Assembly: GCA_964428725.1 (NCBI GenBank)
Contig: CAYRYW010000003.1
Location: 2,465-66,464, forward strand
DNA length: 64,000 bases
Source of the DNA: an uncultured Dehalococcoidales bacterium
Lineage (GTDB): Bacteria > Chloroflexota > Dehalococcoidia > E44-bin15
Direction: 5' to 3'
The notes beneath the pieces are model-generated. The model saw only the letters and a program-made list of their open reading frames with translations. It did no database searches and had not been told where the DNA came from. Of the stretch, positions 39,002-45,073 are shown one piece after another. The first letter of the stretch is position 1. Each line of letters starts with the position of its first letter. The translations under genes and the position numbers were made by a program.

Positions 39002-41614
39002 TCAATCGCTGAATCCGGCAATATCATGCTGAGGTTCACTCTCATGTTGCTCCAGCCTTGAAGCCAGCTCCGTCCTGTATTTACCTCCCCTTTTCGCCTT
39101 CATCAGGGCGGCATCGGCCATGAATATCAAACCGTCAATGGTGTCTATATCCTCGGGGAACTGAGCGATACCGGCGCTGAACCCCAGAGGGGTTTCCAGT
39201 GTGAACGAAATATCTTTCGATGTGGAGGGCCATTGTGCCCTGACCCGTTCGATAATCTTTTCCGCCCTTTCGACATTTGTTGATGGGAAGATAATGGCGA
39301 ACTCGTCACCTCCGTAACGGAAGACCGGGTCGGTTTTCCGCAGCATTGATTTGAGGGTCCGGGCGAAATCTTTCAGCACTTCATCACCGCTGATGTGCCC
39401 ATATATATCGTTGTACAGTTTGAACCCGTCGAGGTCGACCATCACCAGACAGAACGTATGTCTGTAGCGACGCGAGCGGTTCATTTCAGACTCGAGCACT
39501 TCGTAGAAATGGCGGCGATTGTACGAGCCGGTCAGCTTATCGGTTATGGATAGCTCGCTCAGCTTTTCCATAAGCTGGGCGTTCTCGATAGCGACCCCTA
39601 TCTGCCCCCCTATCGTTTCCAGCAGACGGATGTCTTTTTCAGTGAAATCCCTGGGTTCGCGGTCGAAGATATTCATAACTCCCAGGGTTTTGCCTTTTGA
39701 CCTGAGTGGCACGCTGACAAGTGCCCTGAGGTCGCCGAGGCGATAAACCGATTTGAGAGCATGCGGGATCCTCACATCGTCCAGCATATTTGTAGACATT
39801 GTCACCTTGCCTGTTTTCGTAGCCTCACCGGTGACGCCTGCACCCAGGGGAATCTCCCTGGCAGCCGTTGCGACTCTCTCACATACTCCCTTGTGAACGG
39901 TGAGCGTCAGCTTCTGGCTCTCCTCATCGATCAGCCATATGCCTCCGGCAGGCAAGTCCATAACTTCAAGGGTGGAATCCAGTGCAGACTGCAATAAGTC
40001 ATCCAACCTCGACTGCTGGCTGAGCGATTGCGAGATGGTATTCATGGCGATCAGTTCCCTGTTGCGCTGTCTCACTACTTCCTCTGCCTGTCTGCGTTTG
40101 GTAACATCGCGGGCGATGGTAACGAACTCTGACACATCGCCAGATTCATTCATCAGCGGCGATGAGCTGAATTCAGCTTCTATCTCTGTGCCGTCGGCCC
40201 GTACAAAGCTGCACTGGAACTGTTTTAAACCAGACTTATCCTCAAGGTTTTTACGCATCTGCTGTATGATCATGTCATGATCCCGGGGTGCTATAAGCGA
40301 GATGGCATTCCGCCCTACCAGTTCCTGCTTAGAATAGCCTGATAGTTCAGGTGCTACGTCGTTGACCTCCAATATATTGCCAGCCGAATCTGTAACAATG
40401 ATAGCCTCGCCTACTGACTCGAACATGGTGCGCAGCTTTCCCTCCGATTCTCGCAGTGCCTGCTCCTGGCGCTTGCGCTCAGTGATGTCGCGGGCGATGC
40501 CCAGCACGCCCATGACGCTGCCGGCGGCATCGCGTATCAGATTGATCCCATATTCTACTTCCAAATCACCGCCACTTGCCGTTCGCAGATGCAGATACTG
40601 GTACTCCGGCCCGTCCGCATGCAGTCCCTTCTTGATCGCCTCAACTGCCATCTTTACAGCATCATCGCGGTATGCCTCAACCACGAGCTCCGCGCTGCTT
40701 CGCCCGATAAGCTCCCCCTCATTCTTATATCCCAGCGTGCGCACTGTTGATTCATTCACATCTACAACGTCACCCTTCAGATCCATTGCCACGATCATGT
40801 CGCCCATCGATTGGAACATGAAGCGCAGCTTTTCTTCTTTCTCCCTTATCTCCTGCTCCATCCGCTTGCGCTCAGTGATATTGGCTACAATTGCCCTGAT
40901 GCCTATAATATTGCCCTCGTCATCTATGACATGGCTTCCATGGATGGTGATGGGAAATCTGCTGCCGTCCTTCCGCAGTGCGGTGGCTTCAATTATGCGC
41001 GGAAGCTCTCCGGACATGGCTCGGTGCATCTCAGCTAAGATTTTGTCCCCGTCCTCAGGTGCGACCATCTGAACGGCGTTAAGGCCAGCGTTGAATTCCT
41101 CATGCGTGTACCCGAAGGTCTGGAATGCGATTTCATTGGCATATGAAATGTTCCCTTGCCCGTCAATCTCGATGACTATCTCCGGCAGGGACTCGAGCAG
41201 ATTTCTGAATTTCTCCTCTTTTCCCCGTAGCGCTTCTTCTACACCCTGGCGCTCGATGGCATATCGCAGGGCGCGCACCAGCAGGCCGCTGTTTGTTTGG
41301 CCCTTGGCGAGATAATCTTGTGCCCCGTGTCGCACAGCTTCCAGTGCGAACGCCTCATCGGCGAATCCGCTCAATACTACAACGGGGGTTGCAGGTGACT
41401 GGTCACGTATTTTTACGAACGTGTCCAGCCCGTGGCTGTCCGGTAACGAGAGGTCCAGCAGGACAACGTCTACAATCGTCTCGCCGAGGCATTTGAGGGC
41501 TGCTTCCAGGCTCTCCGCGTGCAACAACTCGAACTGCCCGGTCGCCACTTCGCTGAGCATTTCCTTGATCAGCCTGGCGTCCCCCCGATTGTCCTCTACC
41601 ATCAGAACTTTCAT
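39002..41614 (-). CDS. Response-regulator diguanylate cyclase: REC - 3xPAS - GAF - GGDEF (870 aa)
   Basis: REC (VLMVEDN.GD...VVLLDLSLPD), three PAS units, GAF, and GGDEF (RYGGDEF) with an RKTD I-site 5 residues upstream. Confidence 0.9.
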   Translation of the reverse strand: MKVLMVEDNRGDARLIKEMLSEVATGQFELLHAESLEAALKCLGETIVDVVLLDLSLPDSHGLDTFVKIRDQSPATPVVVLSGFADEAFALEAVRHGAQDYLAKGQTNSGLLVRALRYAIERQGVEEALRGKEEKFRNLLESLPEIVIEIDGQGNISYANEIAFQTFGYTHEEFNAGLNAVQMVAPEDGDKILAEMHRAMSGELPRIIEATALRKDGSRFPITIHGSHVIDDEGNIIGIRAIVANITERKRMEQEIREKEEKLRFMFQSMGDMIVAMDLKGDVVDVNESTVRTLGYKNEGELIGRSSAELVVEAYRDDAVKMAVEAIKKGLHADGPEYQYLHLRTASGGDLEVEYGINLIRDAAGSVMGVLGIARDITERKRQEQALRESEGKLRTMFESVGEAIIVTDSAGNILEVNDVAPELSGYSKQELVGRNAISLIAPRDHDMIIQQMRKNLEDKSGLKQFQCSFVRADGTEIEAEFSSSPLMNESGDVSEFVTIARDVTKRRQAEEVVRQRNRELIAMNTISQSLSQQSRLDDLLQSALDSTLEVMDLPAGGIWLIDEESQKLTLTVHKGVCERVATAAREIPLGAGVTGEATKTGKVTMSTNMLDDVRIPHALKSVYRLGDLRALVSVPLRSKGKTLGVMNIFDREPRDFTEKDIRLLETIGGQIGVAIENAQLMEKLSELSITDKLTGSYNRRHFYEVLESEMNRSRRYRHTFCLVMVDLDGFKLYNDIYGHISGDEVLKDFARTLKSMLRKTDPVFRYGGDEFAIIFPSTNVERAEKIIERVRAQWPSTSKDISFTLETPLGFSAGIAQFPEDIDTIDGLIFMADAALMKAKRGGKYRTELASRLEQHESEPQHDIAGFSD

Positions 41615-42550: not shown

Positions 42551-43972
42551 CTACTTATACCATCTCCTTTGAACCATTCGCCTTGCCAGCAGATAGGATA
42601 CTGCTACCAGGCCAAGGGCTTCAGCAGTTATAGCGCCAAGGACCCACCAGCTCACACGCGTAGCGGTGTCCGCTTCGACTGTCCCCTCGCCATCTTCGGT
42701 AGCATCTTCAGCTCCATTGCTTATCCCGGCCTCACCGCTGGTCGGCTCACCGACTTCTTCGGCGGCCTCCTCGGCGGCTTCTTCGGTGACATCAGACGCT
42801 TCTTCTTCAGCATCATCTGCCACATCTTCGGTGTCGCTGCTGCCACTTGGAACATAACCACCGCCACCGCCACCGCCACCAACATATGCTATCCGCGTCG
42901 CAGTCGGCGTGGGTGTTGGTGTCGGCTCGATAACGATGGTCAACGTCGGCGTCGGCTCAACGACAACGGTCTCGGTAGGCGTTGGCGTCGGCTCAACGAC
43001 AATGGTCTCCGTTGGAGTGGGCGTTGGCTCAGGCGGGAAGCCGTAATGCAGTATGGTGCCAGCATCGCCTACAACGAAGATATCGGTTTCAGAGGTTCCA
43101 TGGATGCCCAGCAGGTCCACGCCGGTGGAGGTGTCAATAGATGACAGTTTGCTGCCATCATAGTGAACTATAATACCTCCATCTGCCACACCAAACATGT
43201 TGGATATAGAATCTCCCCATACATCGTAGATCACTGCTGTTTCTCCGATCATTAGCGTTTCACACTCTCTACCATCGTAGTATATTACGATGGCGACTTC
43301 ACCTGCGGCGACTTCACCTACAGCAACAACGCTGATAGGTGAAAAGCCCCAAACGCCATACAGGTTGTCGCTAGTTCCACTGTCGATAAGCTCTATGCTT
43401 GACCCATCGAATGCAGCGAACAAACCATTATAACCAACTGCAAAGACGTCGTATGGGGAGTATCCCCAAACATCATAGAAGCACACCATGCCGCCCTCGC
43501 CCATTTGCCAGTCGCTGCCATCGTAGTGCGCTAGAAAAGTGTGACCTACTACGAATACCTGTGATGAATGGCACCAGACGCCATACAGCGCCTTCGTGGT
43601 GCCCAGGTCGATAGCGTTCCACGAGCTGCCGTCATAGTGCAGGACAACGCCATTGATGCCGACGGCGTAGACGTCAGTGGATGAGGACCCCCAGATGCCA
43701 TGGAGGTCGCTGGTAGTGCCGCTGTCCATCTGACTCCAGCTGTTGCCATTGTAGTGAAGGATGGTACCCTCCTCACCAACGGCGAAGACGTCGGTGGGTG
43801 AAGCCGCCCACACGTTTGTGAGGGCATTCGTTGTGCCGCTGTCCATGGTGCACCATTGCGGTGGTGCAACGGCTGCTTCGGCACCGGTCATGGGTGCCAC
43901 CATCGCCATGGAAACCGCTACTATTACAGCGGCTACAATAATACCTAATTTAATTTTTGTCTTAGCGAACAT
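42551..43972 (-). CDS. Secreted/cell-surface beta-propeller repeat protein with Thr/Pro-rich stalk, poly-Gly, acidic segment and C-terminal TM anchor
   Basis: Signal-like N-terminus MFAKTKIKLGIIVAAVIVAVSMAMVAPMTGAEA. About 8 repeats of W...DSGTT..L.G(V/I)WG.S..DV(F/Y)AVG..G.(I/V).HYDGS.W. Stalk EPTPTPTETIVV x3, then GGGGGGGG, a D/E-rich segment, and a terminal TM plus RRMVQRRWYK. Start set at ATG 43972 (GGAGAAGGAGG 7 nt upstream). The 14 extra codons of the ORF-track start lie in the riboswitch. Confidence 0.8.
   Translation of the reverse strand: MFAKTKIKLGIIVAAVIVAVSMAMVAPMTGAEAAVAPPQWCTMDSGTTNALTNVWAASPTDVFAVGEEGTILHYNGNSWSQMDSGTTSDLHGIWGSSSTDVYAVGINGVVLHYDGSSWNAIDLGTTKALYGVWCHSSQVFVVGHTFLAHYDGSDWQMGEGGMVCFYDVWGYSPYDVFAVGYNGLFAAFDGSSIELIDSGTSDNLYGVWGFSPISVVAVGEVAAGEVAIVIYYDGRECETLMIGETAVIYDVWGDSISNMFGVADGGIIVHYDGSKLSSIDTSTGVDLLGIHGTSETDIFVVGDAGTILHYGFPPEPTPTPTETIVVEPTPTPTETVVVEPTPTLTIVIEPTPTPTPTATRIAYVGGGGGGGGYVPSGSSDTEDVADDAEEEASDVTEEAAEEAAEEVGEPTSGEAGISNGAEDATEDGEGTVEADTATRVSWWVLGAITAEALGLVAVSYLLARRMVQRRWYK
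42921..43032. repeat. Tandem 30-45-nt repeats encoding the (V)EPTPTPTET(I/V)V stalk
   Basis: GTCGGCTC(G/A)A(T/C)(A/G)ACGA... units start at 42921, 42951 and 42987. The adjacent (GGTGGC)n at 42858-42881 encodes poly-Gly. Confidence 0.8.
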
Positions 43973-43991
43973 TGTAGTTCCTCCTTCTCCT

Positions 43992-44073
43992 GATTTCGGT
44001 AACCCATCCGCCATAGTTTTGCTATGGAGTACAGGCTTTGCGCACCCGCTTTTCAGCAGGTTTGCCTTTGTCG
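43992..44073 (-). promoter_or_regulatory. c-di-GMP-I (GEMM-I) riboswitch aptamer, copy 3 (abuts the SD of the propeller gene)
   Basis: Minus-strand RNA CGACAAAGGCAAACCUGCUGAAAAGCGGGUGCGCAAAGCCUGUACUCCAUAGCAAAACUAUGGCGGAUGGGUUACCGAAAUC. It has GGCAAACC, a GAAA-capped hairpin (CCUGCU/AGCGGG), GCGCAAAGCC, a second hairpin (CCAUAG/CUAUGG) and GGGUUACCGA, in the same order as V. cholerae Vc2. It ends 1 nt before GGAGAAGGAGG. Confidence 0.8.
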
Positions 44074-44120
44074 ACTCAATTGTGCTATCCTACCACCTCC
44101 TTTGATGTCGATCCGTTTTT

Positions 44121-44157
44121 TAATAAGAACGCCTTCAAGGGTCCACATGAAGGCGTT
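44121..44157 (-). terminator. Hairpin terminator following aptamer 2
   Basis: RNA AACGCCUUCA-UGUGGACCCU-UGAAGGCGUU (10-bp perfect stem) followed by CUUAUUA. The U-tract is weak. Confidence 0.5.
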
Positions 44158-44173
44158 AAATAATAGCTCGTAT

Positions 44174-44257
44174 GATTCGGTAGCCTGGGCCCACAGTCAT
44201 AATAGCTGTGGGTCACAGCTTTGCGTCACCACCTTCAAAGTGGATTTGCCTTTGTCG
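44174..44257 (-). promoter_or_regulatory. c-di-GMP-I (GEMM-I) riboswitch aptamer, copy 2
   Basis: RNA CGACAAAGGCAAAUCCACUUUGAAGGUGGUGACGCAAAGCUGUGACCCACAGCUAUUAUGACUGUGGGCCCAGGCUACCGAAUC. Contains GGCAAAUCC, hairpin CCAC../..GUGG, GACGCAAAGC, the 7-bp hairpin CCCACAG/CUGUGGG, and CUACCGAA. Confidence 0.8.
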
Positions 44258-44280
44258 TTCCTAATTATTTTTTAAGGTAC

Positions 44281-44319
44281 AAAAAAGCGCCCTTCAGCAG
44301 AATTCTGCTAAAAGGCGCC
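44281..44319 (-). terminator. Strong intrinsic terminator following aptamer 1
   Basis: RNA GCGCCUUUUAGCAG-AAUU-CUGCUGAAGGGCGC (14-bp stem including G-U pairs) followed by UUUUUUG. Confidence 0.8.
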
Positions 44320-44337
44320 ATAACTAACTTCTCGAGT

Positions 44338-44418
44338 CTTCGGGAGCCCGGCTTTTCCACGTATATCTGGATGTCCGTGGCTTTGCGCCACTGCCTTCTA
44401 GCAGATTTGCCTTTATCG
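44338..44418 (-). promoter_or_regulatory. c-di-GMP-I (GEMM-I) riboswitch aptamer, copy 1 (promoter-proximal)
   Basis: RNA CGAUAAAGGCAAAUCUGCUAGAAGGCAGUGGCGCAAAGCCACGGACAUCCAGAUAUACGUGGAAAAGCCGGGCUCCCGAAG. Contains GGCAAAUC, hairpin CUGC/GCAG, GGCGCAAAGCC, hairpin CCACG/CGUGG, and a CUCCCGAAG tail. This is the most divergent of the three at the 3' end. Confidence 0.7.
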
Positions 44419-44473
44419 ATGCCTTTATTTGTTTTTAAGGAGCTTTATAATATTCAATCTTTAGTATGCTCTA

Positions 44474-44502
44474 ATTATACACCTTAATTGCTGTTTTGTC
44501 AA
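44474..44502 (-). promoter_or_regulatory. Consensus sigma70-type promoter driving the riboswitch leader
   Basis: Minus strand reads TTGACA (44502-44497), a 17-nt spacer, then TATAAT (44479-44474). Both hexamers are perfect consensus. Predicted TSS is near 44467, about 50 nt before aptamer 1. Confidence 0.65.
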
Positions 44503-44623
44503 CATCGCGTATCCCGCATCCTTTATGGTGTCCAAATCGGTTGCATGTCCCTGGGTTACACGTCCAAGCGAAGTGGCAATGTGAACCTTTTTGCATGTGT
44601 CAAAATTCTTCAGTCTCACCAGG

Positions 44624-45073
44624 CTACCGAAAAACAATCTGGCTCAACACCAGGAAAACAATGGCCATGGCAGCTAGGAAGTAGTAAATGCTCGGGGCAG
44701 GACCCCACCAGGAACCGTGCCACCAGATCTCCGACTTTCTGAATTTCCTTATCCCATAATTCGGATTAAATATGAACCAGGCGAAATCTTCCGCGAGGAA
44801 GAAGGTGTACAGCAACCCCCAGATCAACAGTTCCAACTTTGGAGACCATTCGACGAAAAGGAGGGGGAAATGGAACATCAGGATCAGGAAGATGGTCATC
44901 CATGTATGATAGCCCGTCAGTGGCCGCCCGCCGAGGAGCCTCACCACCCACCCCTTGGTCTTGCGCCAGCACGGCAGGTCGGCGGCCCAGCCACGCTTGC
45001 CCTCGATCTGGATCTCCAGGTTGGCGAAAACTATGCCCAGTAAAATCGCAGACAGGATCTGGATGGCTAACAA
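44624..45073 (-). CDS. Hypothetical integral membrane protein (4 TM, Trp-rich)
   Basis: Four hydrophobic helices. 27 nt downstream of acxC on the same strand. No family recognised. Confidence 0.6.
   Translation of the reverse strand: MLAIQILSAILLGIVFANLEIQIEGKRGWAADLPCWRKTKGWVVRLLGGRPLTGYHTWMTIFLILMFHFPLLFVEWSPKLELLIWGLLYTFFLAEDFAWFIFNPNYGIRKFRKSEIWWHGSWWGPAPSIYYFLAAMAIVFLVLSQIVFR

What the first reader, a model, noticed from the sequence alone, without database searches (positions are those of the whole stretch)
44121..44420. Aptamer segments are complementary to the 5' arms of their own terminators, giving two transcriptional gates plus one translational gate
In copy 1, the aptamer hairpin segment CUGCUAGAAGG can pair over 11 positions (one G-U) with CCUUUUAGCAG. 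That sequence is the 5' arm of the downstream terminator, whose normal partner is the near-identical CUGCUGAAGGG.

In copy 2, aptamer UGAAGGUG can pair with CGCCUUCA, the 5' arm of its terminator, whose normal partner is UGAAGGCG.

So each terminator's 3' arm mimics a piece of the aptamer. This is the classic layout for mutually exclusive antiterminator and terminator folds. If ligand binding locks the aptamer hairpin, the terminator is free to form, which suggests OFF switches. High c-di-GMP would then shut down an operon that itself encodes a diguanylate cyclase. Copy 3 has no terminator and instead abuts the SD, suggesting a third, translational checkpoint. The direction of regulation is inference only.
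Basis: inference. Interest (0 to 1): 0.6.

Follow-up and report, generated by a model that had tools for sequence, protein, structure and literature searches.

The report
Tandem c-di-GMP riboswitches with hairpin-invading antiterminators
Three c-di-GMP-sensing RNA switches sit in a row ahead of a surface-protein and c-di-GMP-signalling operon; the first two each carry a terminator whose first arm can instead pair with the sensor's own small hairpin, so they most likely stop transcription when c-di-GMP is high, a known kind of device with an unusual wiring detail.

Summary
Three c-di-GMP-I (RF01051) aptamers lie on the minus strand behind a perfect sigma-70 promoter.

- **Copy 1:** the 5' arm of its terminator pairs over 13 bp with the aptamer's P2 hairpin, not just the 11 bp reported.
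- **Copy 2:** 8 + 5 bp pair the P2 hairpin with the terminator's 5' arm and loop.

Both pairings beat shuffled arms and beat real terminator arms taken from relatives. In folding by transcript length, both dominate the ensemble in the interval before the terminator's 3' arm is made. Across nine homologous units from related genomes the pairing is kept in register, with compensatory changes.

The OFF-switch reading for copies 1 and 2 is therefore well supported by computation, at about 0.65. It is untested experimentally.

The proposed translational gate at copy 3 has no support beyond position. No sequestering helix was found, and the Shine-Dalgarno sequence is predicted to be open.

Tandem and triple c-di-GMP-I riboswitches and OFF switches are already known, and this scan has reported similar OFF-OFF tandems on other DNA. 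The modest novelty is the antiterminator's partner. It is the P2 hairpin in the 5' half of the aptamer, not the aptamer's 3' strand as in Cd1.

The parts
44474..44502 (-). Sigma-70-type promoter, TTGACA-17 nt-TATAAT (12 of 12 matches). The transcript is expected to start near 44467.
   Evidence: It is the only promoter-like site found in 43800-44700.
44339..44421 (-). c-di-GMP-I aptamer, copy 1
   Evidence: RF01051, 51.4 bits (gathering score 35). The AAAGGCAAA, CGCAAAGC and CCGAA cores are present.
44393..44405 (-). P2 hairpin segment of copy 1 (UCUGCUAGAAGGC). This is the 5' partner of antiterminator 1.
44280..44319 (-). Intrinsic terminator 1. It has a 15-bp stem, loop AAUU and a UUUUUG tail. 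Its 5' arm (44316-44304) is the 3' partner of antiterminator 1.
   Evidence: (hairpin -25.6 kcal/mol)
44176..44260 (-). c-di-GMP-I aptamer, copy 2
   Evidence: RF01051, 40.3 bits
44230..44244 (-). P2 hairpin segment of copy 2 (UCCACUUUGAAGGUG). This is the 5' partner of antiterminator 2.
44120..44157 (-). Terminator-like hairpin 2. It has a 10-bp stem, AACGCCUUCA/UGAAGGCGUU, and an interrupted U-tract, CUUAUUA. Its 5' arm and loop (44155-44142) are the 3' partner of antiterminator 2.
   Evidence: hairpin -13 to -14 kcal/mol. The simple scan missed it because the loop is longer than 8 nt.
43995..44076 (-). c-di-GMP-I aptamer, copy 3. Its P2 loop is a GAAA tetraloop. No terminator follows it.
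   Evidence: RF01051, 50.5 bits
43970..43990 (-). Ribosome-binding region. GGAG lies at 43990-43987 and GGAGG at 43984-43980. The ATG at 43972-43970 begins the first gene.
   Evidence: Predicted mostly unpaired.
42551..43972 (-). First controlled gene. It encodes a 473-aa protein with a signal-like N-terminus, repeats, a Pro/Thr-rich stretch and a C-terminal hydrophobic segment. It has no Pfam match.
39002..41614 (-). REC-PAS x3-GAF-GGDEF protein (diguanylate cyclase type). It lies downstream in the same orientation. No terminator-like hairpin of 6 bp or more was detected on the minus strand between it and the leader.

Best explanation
The leader carries three c-di-GMP-I riboswitch aptamers in series. 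Units 1 and 2 are complete transcriptional OFF switches of the strand-exchange type.

**Without ligand.** The nascent 5' arm of each terminator nucleates on the loop of the aptamer's own P2 hairpin. It then displaces the P2 stem and forms a 13-bp antiterminator. The terminator cannot form, and RNA polymerase reads through.

**With c-di-GMP bound.** The P2 hairpin is locked into the folded aptamer. The terminator's 5' arm stays free, pairs with its 3' arm (which mimics the P2 sequence), and transcription stops.

**The two units differ.**
- Unit 1 behaves as a kinetic switch. The antiterminator wins only during the transcription interval.
- Unit 2 behaves as a thermodynamic switch with a weaker terminator.

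**In series.** Read-through of the two gates multiplies. This should give tighter and steeper repression at high c-di-GMP of an operon encoding a surface protein, response regulators and a GGDEF cyclase. That would be negative feedback.

**Copy 3.** It is a genuine aptamer, but no expression platform was recognisable and its output is unknown.

**What is shown and what is inferred.**
- Shown: the sequences, the pairings, their statistics, their conservation and the predicted energetics.
- Inferred: ligand binding, the direction of control, loop-nucleated invasion and the feedback.
For: - **Identity.** Three RF01051 hits lie above the gathering score, with the conserved junction motifs. A single perfect promoter lies upstream.
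- **Position of the terminators.** Both start 19 nt after their aptamers, so they cannot compete directly with the aptamer's 3' side as ON-type terminators do.
- **Significance.** The antiterminator duplexes are -24.6 and -20.7 kcal/mol. They beat shuffles (3/2000 and 0/2000 for unit 1; 12/2000 and 35/2000 for unit 2). They beat non-cognate pairings (T1 with aptamer 2, -12.4 kcal/mol; T2 with aptamer 1, -15.9 kcal/mol). They also beat natural arms from relatives (0/37 and 1/37).
- **Same site twice.** Both units use the P2 hairpin, although the P2 sequences differ.
- **Folding by transcript length.** Antiterminator probability is >= 0.97 from the emergence of the 5' arm until the 3' arm is made. 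In unit 1 the terminator then takes over at full length. In unit 2 the antiterminator persists.
- **Ligand proxy.** Enforcing the P2 hairpin moves terminator-2 probability from 0.00 to 0.88, at a cost of about 5 kcal/mol in ensemble energy.
- **Persistence.** The findpath barrier out of the antiterminator is about 20 kcal/mol, against 9-12 kcal/mol into it.
- **Conservation.** Window units 1 and 2 align end to end with seven units from relatives. In that alignment 77.8% of antiterminator cells pair in register, against 37-51% when the partner is slid. Six of 14 pairs change on both sides, which 0 of 500 shuffles reached.
- **Recurrence.** Other riboswitches of the same lineage show the same logic with a different 5' partner, CCGAGAAAGGC, in L030, L034 and L062.
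Against: - No experiment or transcript data were available.
- The three aptamers score 40-51 bits, against about 48-91 bits for those of relatives. They lack the CUAA half of the tetraloop receptor, and copies 1 and 2 have non-GNRA P2 loops. Binding and tertiary locking of P2 are therefore assumed, not shown.
- In unit 1 the antiterminator is about 15 kcal/mol more stable than the aptamer-intact state before the 3' arm appears. Ligand control must therefore be kinetic.
- Terminator 2 has a poor U-tract.
- The alignment comprises nine related sequences, and the tested structure was derived from one of them. This inflates the percentage of cells paired.
- No orthologous leader was found for an independent test.
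Confidence: 0.65

Rival explanations
1. The full reading of the first reader: two transcriptional OFF gates plus a third, translational gate. In the third, ligand binding to copy 3 controls access to the adjacent Shine-Dalgarno sequence.
For: Copy 3 ends at 43995, which is 4 nt before a GGAG and 10 nt before the GGAGG. It has no terminator. In relatives L021 and L022, a terminator-bearing unit is likewise followed by a terminator-less aptamer with a purine-rich tract directly after CCGAA.
Against: The best duplex between aptamer 3 or its spacer and the ribosome-binding region is -15.0 kcal/mol, and 537 of 1000 shuffles do as well. The SD is mostly unpaired in the ensemble. Only 19 of 968 suboptimal folds within 3 kcal/mol pair the whole GGAGG. 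A possible extension of P1 stops before the main SD.
Confidence: 0.25
2. The complementarity is a by-product of how the units arose, for example by copying of P2-like sequence into the terminator during tandem duplication or gene conversion. The terminators then act constitutively as attenuators or insulators, or the aptamers act through some other output. In this view the antiterminator has no regulatory role.
For: The 3' arm of terminator 1 resembles the P2 region of copy 3 as well as that of copy 1. Its 5' arm also pairs with aptamer 3 at -20.0 kcal/mol. The units are clearly homologous repeats. At full-length equilibrium unit 1 forms the terminator regardless.
Against: The P2 sequences of units 1 and 2 and of relatives differ, and the terminator arms differ in step with them: 6 of 14 pairs have double-sided changes. 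Neither the aptamer constraint nor the terminator constraint alone requires this. Cognate arms pair much better than non-cognate ones. A constitutive terminator with a 15-bp stem and U6 directly behind a perfect promoter would silence the operon.
Confidence: 0.1
3. Unit 2 is not a terminator-based switch. Its hairpin, with the interrupted U-tract, is part of a long-range helix that encloses aptamer 2. That helix would control RNA processing or stability, or the folding of the next unit, rather than termination.
For: The full-length minimum-energy fold of unit 2 pairs the 5' flank UAGGAACG...AAGG with CCUU...CGUUCUUA, in addition to the antiterminator. This gives about 25 bp of long-range pairing, and terminator probability is 0.00. 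The tail UCUUAUUA is poor for an intrinsic terminator.
Against: The hairpin and tail align with the strong terminators (U7-U9) of homologous units in relatives. With P2 locked, the hairpin forms with probability 0.88.
Confidence: 0.1
4. The switches are ON switches: c-di-GMP promotes read-through.
For: The experimentally studied triple-tandem c-di-GMP-I riboswitch (Bc3-5) is predicted to switch transcription ON (PMC4759541). The original GEMM survey proposed ON for the terminators that overlap the aptamer (PMC1950547).
Against: Here the terminators start 19 nt beyond the aptamers and share no nucleotides with them. The only strong alternative partner of the terminator's 5' arm is a helix that must be intact for ligand binding. 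A bound aptamer therefore frees the arm rather than sequestering it.
Confidence: 0.05

Closest known systems
Cd1 c-di-GMP-I riboswitch of Clostridioides difficile, a transcriptional OFF switch (Landgraf et al. 2022, PMC9262584)
   Same: The aptamer class is the same. The terminator lies downstream of the aptamer, is separate from it and can coexist with it. An antiterminator that competes with both decides the outcome during transcription, and ligand binding favours termination.
   Different: In Cd1 the antiterminator pairs the terminator's 5' strand with the aptamer's 3' strand. G147/C148 pair with C87/G86 and unfold the binding pocket. Here the partner is the P2 hairpin (5' strand, loop and start of the 3' strand) in the 5' half of the aptamer, and the whole P3 domain is enclosed by the long-range helix. 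Cd1 is a single unit; this leader has three aptamers.
Bc3-5 triple-tandem c-di-GMP-I riboswitch of Bacillus thuringiensis (Zhou et al. 2016, PMC4759541)
   Same: Three c-di-GMP-I aptamers lie in one 5' leader. The serial arrangement gave more stringent, more digital control there.
   Different: Bc3, Bc4 and Bc5 are predicted ON switches whose terminators use the binding-site C, P1 and part of P3, and all three have terminators. Here two units are predicted OFF with non-overlapping terminators. The third has no terminator, and the three copies have diverged from one another.
Catalogue of tandem ('pseudo-cooperative') c-di-GMP-I riboswitches (Sherlock et al. 2022, PMC9481103: 347 doublets and 12 triplets)
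   Same: Riboswitches of one class, each with its own expression platform, lie in series in one leader.
   Different: The catalogue does not describe which aptamer element the expression platform competes with. Whether this locus is among the 12 triplets is unknown.
Strand-exchange riboswitches in general, for example ZTP and purine riboswitches (review PMC10907184)
   Same: An invading strand nucleates on a single-stranded toehold and displaces an aptamer helix unless the ligand stabilises that helix.
   Different: Here the inferred toehold is the apical loop of an internal aptamer hairpin, and the invader is the terminator's 5' arm acting from about 90 nt downstream. This is inferred, not measured.

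Membership tests
c-di-GMP-I (GEMM-I) riboswitch aptamer, Rfam RF01051 | Covariance-model score at or above the curated gathering score (35 bits) | tested here: met
   51.4, 40.3 and 50.5 bits, all full length (model positions 1-87).
c-di-GMP-I (GEMM-I) riboswitch aptamer, Rfam RF01051 | Conserved junction nucleotides that contact the ligand. By Vc2 numbering, recalled from memory, these are G20 in AAAGGCAAA, A47 in CGCAAAG and C92 in CCGAA. A G at the first site marks c-di-GMP rather than cGAMP selectivity (PMC9481103). | tested here: met
   The alignments show AAAGGCAAA, (G/A/U)(C/G)CGCAAAGC and (C/A)CCGAA in all three copies. This is by alignment only.
c-di-GMP-I (GEMM-I) riboswitch aptamer, Rfam RF01051 | GNRA tetraloop on the first hairpin with a tetraloop receptor in the second. 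This is present in about half of members (PMC1950547), so it is not strictly defining. | tested here: inconclusive
   copy 3 has GAAA, while copies 1 and 2 have AGAA- and UUGAA-type loops. The CUAA half of the receptor is deleted in all three alignments.
c-di-GMP-I (GEMM-I) riboswitch aptamer, Rfam RF01051 | Selective binding of c-di-GMP | not testable with these tools
   Needs in-line probing or ITC.
Transcriptional OFF riboswitch of the Cd1 type | An intrinsic terminator downstream of the aptamer that does not overlap it | tested here: met
   the gap is 19 nt in both units. Terminator 1 is strong and terminator 2 is weak.
Transcriptional OFF riboswitch of the Cd1 type | An antiterminator that is mutually exclusive with both the terminator and the binding-competent aptamer | tested here: met
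Transcriptional OFF riboswitch of the Cd1 type | The antiterminator is formed with the aptamer's 3' (P1/P3) strand | tested here: not met
   all 13 pairs in unit 2, and the 13 contiguous pairs in unit 1, fall in the P2 hairpin. Unit 1 adds only 3 pairs in P3.
Transcriptional OFF riboswitch of the Cd1 type | More termination with ligand | not testable with these tools
   Needs single-round transcription.
Tandem same-class riboswitches with separate expression platforms | Two or more complete riboswitches (aptamer plus own platform) in one leader with no gene between them | tested here: met
   for units 1 and 2. There is one promoter and no credible ORF in 44467-43973.
Tandem same-class riboswitches with separate expression platforms | The third member also has its own expression platform | tested here: inconclusive
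   no terminator and no sequestering helix were found for copy 3.

The most novel reading that the evidence does not exclude
A lineage-specific family of c-di-GMP-I OFF switches in which the genetic decision is gated at the P2 hairpin rather than at P1 or P3. The terminator's 5' arm would invade P2 from its apical loop, the loop that makes the tertiary contact in the bound aptamer. Ligand-dependent docking would therefore hide the toehold. Two such units with different energetics, one kinetic and one thermodynamic, would be chained with a third, platform-less aptamer to shape the response of a c-di-GMP-making operon.
Probability: 0.3. Interest if true: 0.55.

Novelty: new variant of a known kind. 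Interest (0 to 1): 0.4.

Why it matters
If the model holds, it gives a second, structurally distinct way for c-di-GMP-I riboswitches to turn genes off. It couples the decision to the tetraloop arm instead of the closing helix. It also supplies a natural family of about ten sequence variants with built-in compensatory changes for studying co-transcriptional strand exchange.

Biologically, it would place a surface protein and a GGDEF cyclase under steep negative feedback by c-di-GMP in an uncultured bacterium. This is an incremental advance. The riboswitch class, the tandem arrangement and the OFF logic are all established.

Tried and rejected
- **Leader DNA against relatives.** A search of 60 relatives found only the conserved aptamer cores and a 75-76% match to the L011/L012/L017 units. 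No orthologous leader turned up.
- **Orthologues through the first gene's protein.** The genome collection gave two relatives at 30-34% identity. The metagenome collection gave three at 29-35%. None has a riboswitch upstream, so there was no independent covariation test on true orthologues.
- **A sequestering or anti-sequestering helix for copy 3.** The search found nothing above shuffles.
- **A regular expression for aptamers.** It was too rough and was replaced by cmscan.
- **ON-switch reading.** Rejected because the terminators do not overlap the aptamers.
- **Literature.** Full-text searches found no description of a P2-directed antiterminator in c-di-GMP-I. The library is incomplete, so absence is not proven.
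- **Barriers.** The findpath values are rough upper bounds and are used only qualitatively.

Full report
**What is there**

cmscan finds three full-length c-di-GMP-I (RF01051) aptamers on the minus strand:
- copy 1 at 44421-44339, 51.4 bits;
- copy 2 at 44260-44176, 40.3 bits;
- copy 3 at 44076-43995, 50.5 bits.

All three keep the conserved AAAGGCAAA, CGCAAAGC and CCGAA cores. A perfect TTGACA-17-TATAAT promoter lies at 44502-44474 and is the only promoter-like site in the leader.

Copy 1 is followed, 19 nt later, by a strong intrinsic terminator at 44319-44286. It has a 15-bp stem and then UUUUUG.

Copy 2 is followed, again 19 nt later, by a weaker hairpin, AACGCCUUCA...UGAAGGCGUU at 44157-44128. 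Its tail is the interrupted CUUAUUA.

Copy 3 has no terminator. It ends 10 nt before the GGAGG at 43984-43980 and 23 nt before the ATG at 43972.

The genes behind the leader, all on the minus strand, are:
- a 473-aa signal-peptide and repeat protein with no Pfam match;
- a small membrane protein;
- a receiver protein;
- a REC-PAS-PAS-PAS-GAF-GGDEF protein;
- another receiver protein;
- after a 154-nt gap, an HD-GYP protein.

On the minus strand the scan found only one terminator-like site within this run of genes, a 5-bp hairpin inside the GGDEF gene.

**Check of the observation**

They also extend.
- In unit 1, UCUGCUAGAAGGC (44405-44393) pairs with GCCUUUUAGCAGA (44316-44304) over 13 bp with one G-U.
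- In unit 2, UCCAC-UU-UGAAGGUG (44244-44230) pairs with CGCCUUCA-U-GUGGA (44155-44142). This uses the terminator loop as well as its 5' arm.

In both units the aptamer partner is the same element, the P2 hairpin: its 5' strand, its loop and the start of its 3' strand. This holds even though the two P2 sequences differ.

**Is it more than chance?**

| Test | Unit 1 | Unit 2 |
|---|---|---|
| Duplex energy, aptamer vs 5' arm plus loop | -24.6 kcal/mol | -20.7 kcal/mol |
| Dinucleotide shuffles of the arm that reach it | 3/2000 | 12/2000 |
| Shuffles of the aptamer that reach it | 0/2000 | 35/2000 |
| Non-cognate pairing | T1 with aptamer 2: -12.4 kcal/mol | T2 with aptamer 1: -15.9 kcal/mol |
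| Natural arms from relatives that match or beat the cognate arm | 0/37 | 1/37 |

**Energetics**

I folded the transcript at increasing lengths as a crude stand-in for co-transcriptional folding.
- The native P2 hairpin is populated until the terminator's 5' arm appears (mean pair probability about 0.7 in unit 1 and 0.4-0.8 in unit 2).
- The antiterminator then takes over, with probability >= 0.97, until the 3' arm is made.
- In unit 1 the terminator wins once it is complete (0.97-0.99). The antiterminator therefore matters only kinetically.
- In unit 2 the antiterminator remains the equilibrium fold at full length.

Enforcing the P2 hairpin, as a proxy for the ligand-locked aptamer, raises terminator-2 probability from 0.00 to 0.88. 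The cost is about 5 kcal/mol in ensemble energy. That is within the binding energy expected of a nanomolar ligand, which is an inference from general thermodynamics.

Rough findpath barriers are 9-12 kcal/mol into the antiterminator and about 20 kcal/mol out of it. This fits a fold that persists while the polymerase crosses the U-tract.

**Comparative evidence**

The window's assembly is an incomplete genome of 2.6 Mb in 141 contigs, about 70% complete. It has five candidate c-di-GMP-I sites: the three in this leader plus two marginal hits at 35.1 and 34.6 bits. Among the 150 relatives searched (151 genomes counting the window's own), 62 genomes have RF01051 hits, often in tandem.

I examined about 50 of these aptamers together with their downstream sequence. 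Four layouts recur:
- (i) terminators that overlap the aptamer's 3' side, the ON type (L055, L057, L061);
- (ii) separate terminators whose 5' arm or loop pairs with the aptamer's 3' strand GGGUUGCC, as in Cd1 (L023, L032, L039, L040, L044, L049, L042);
- (iii) separate terminators whose 5' arm is complementary to the 5' P1 strand plus junction, CCGAGAAAGGC. This is 11 bp perfect in L030 and L034. L062 (CCGGGAAAGGC) shows the same layout, and L036, L048 and L026 show it more weakly;
- (iv) separate terminators whose 5' arm pairs with the P2 hairpin (L021, L022, L017, L035, L027, L015b, and the window's two units).

MAFFT aligns window units 1 and 2 end to end with seven type-(iv) units. The alignment includes a CCUUAAAAA box 5' of the aptamer and the terminator itself, so these are homologous modules.

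On that alignment, which was not fitted to any structure, the antiterminator helix behaves as follows:
- it pairs in 77.8% of cells, against 37-51% when the 3' partner is slid by 1-3 columns;
- six of 14 pairs show changes on both sides, for example U-A, C-G and G-C, A-U, G-U;
- no shuffle out of 500 reached the observed covariation.

The aptamer constrains only P2's two strands, and the terminator constrains only its two arms. Covariation between P2's 5' strand and the terminator's 5' arm is therefore best explained by selection on the antiterminator.

Two caveats apply. There are only nine sequences and they are related. The structure tested was read from one of them.

**Mechanism proposed**

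These are strand-exchange OFF switches.
1. The arm's UUUU or UUC segment can nucleate on the unpaired P2 loop (AGAA or UGAA).
2. The flanking GCC then displaces the top of the stem.
3. The later-transcribed AGCAGA or GUGGA captures the freed 5' strand.

Invasion thus runs in the order of transcription. This sequence of events is an inference.

When c-di-GMP is bound, P2 is part of the compact aptamer and its loop is expected to be engaged. The arm stays free and pairs with its 3' arm, which is a near copy of the P2 sequence. Two OFF gates in series multiply read-through fractions and sharpen the response, as discussed for tandem riboswitches in PMC9481103.

With a GGDEF cyclase downstream, the circuit would be negative feedback. 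The HD-GYP genes further downstream may have their own promoters, so their inclusion is uncertain.

**Copy 3**

It is a good aptamer with a GAAA loop, but I found no expression platform.
- The ribosome-binding region shows no complementarity to the aptamer or its upstream spacer beyond shuffles: -15.0 kcal/mol, with 537 of 1000 shuffles as good.
- The SD is largely unpaired in the ensemble.

The translational-checkpoint idea therefore rests on position alone. Relatives L021 and L022 show the same order, a terminator-bearing unit followed by a terminator-less aptamer with a purine-rich tract. The arrangement may therefore be meaningful, but its output is unknown.

**Comparison with what is known**

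- Tandem c-di-GMP-I riboswitches are common. Sherlock et al. report 347 doublets and 12 triplets (PMC9481103).
- One triplet, Bc3-5, has been studied. It is predicted to be ON, with terminators that use the aptamer's 3' part (PMC4759541).
- The original GEMM paper noted that 78 of 322 instances have terminators overlapping the 3' hairpin, which is again ON logic (PMC1950547).
- The best-studied OFF member, Cd1, forms its antiterminator with the aptamer's 3' strand and unfolds the pocket at C87/G86 (PMC9262584).

The present units share the OFF logic and the coexistence of aptamer and terminator. They differ in the invaded element, which is P2 in the 5' half.

My full-text searches found no description of this layout for c-di-GMP-I. 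That does not prove it is unreported.

Earlier notes of this scan describe tandem c-di-GMP-I units, each with its own terminator and predicted to switch off, on other genomes. One lies before a beta-propeller gene in an Anaerolineales genome. The general arrangement has therefore been seen before in this scan. I did not test those notes.

**Verdict**

- Observation: confirmed.
- Interpretation: partly supported. The two transcriptional OFF gates are well supported by computation and comparison. The third gate is unsupported.
- Novelty: a new variant of a known kind, of moderate interest.

Noticed in passing
window 44440-44432, 44277-44268 and 44125-44114 (minus strand); also L021, L022, L017, L015 and L037 in alignment A1, columns about 26-35: A CCUUAAAAA(A) box, UUAUUAAAAAAC before copy 3, sits about 20-40 nt upstream of each aptamer in the window. 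It is conserved at the same place in homologous units of relatives. In unit 1 it can form a small hairpin with AAGG. Its function is unknown.
   Followed up: partly
window 44264-44230 with 44155-44120 (minus strand): In unit 2 the complementarity goes beyond the antiterminator. The aptamer's 5' flank UAGGAACG...AAGG also pairs with the terminator's 3' arm and tail, CCUU...CGUUCUUA. The full-length minimum-energy fold is therefore one interrupted long-range helix of about 25 bp that encloses the aptamer.
   Followed up: partly
window 44319-44301 versus 44062-44043 (minus strand): The 5' arm of terminator 1 is also complementary to the P2 region of aptamer 3 (-20.0 kcal/mol). The 3' arm of terminator 1, CUGCUGAAGGGCGC, resembles copy 3's CUGCUGAAAAGCGGGUGCGC. 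This may be a trace of how the units arose, or a cross-unit interaction.
   Followed up: no
window 44113-44077 (minus strand): The spacer before copy 3 holds a degenerate partial copy of an aptamer 5' end (AUCGACAUCAAAGGAGG) with an SD-like AAAGGAGGUG but no credible ORF. Its UCGAC can pair with the GUCGA that should form the 5' strand of copy 3's P1.
   Followed up: no
relatives: L030, L034, L062, L036, L048, L026: These show another recurrent OFF-type layout. The terminator's 5' arm, GCCUUUCUCGG, is complementary (11 bp perfect in L030 and L034) to the aptamer's 5' P1 strand plus junction, CCGAGAAAGGC. That junction contains the ligand-contacting G.
   Followed up: partly
relatives: for example L029, L031, L033, L038, L046-L048, L052-L055, L068, L070: Many aptamers in related genomes score best as the c-di-GMP-I-GGC variant (RF03167) rather than RF01051. 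The window's three copies score best as RF01051.
   Followed up: no
window 39002-41614 (minus strand): The GGDEF protein reads RYGGDEF with an RKTD motif five residues upstream, an RxxD I-site pattern. The cyclase itself may therefore also be product-inhibited (read from the translation).
   Followed up: no
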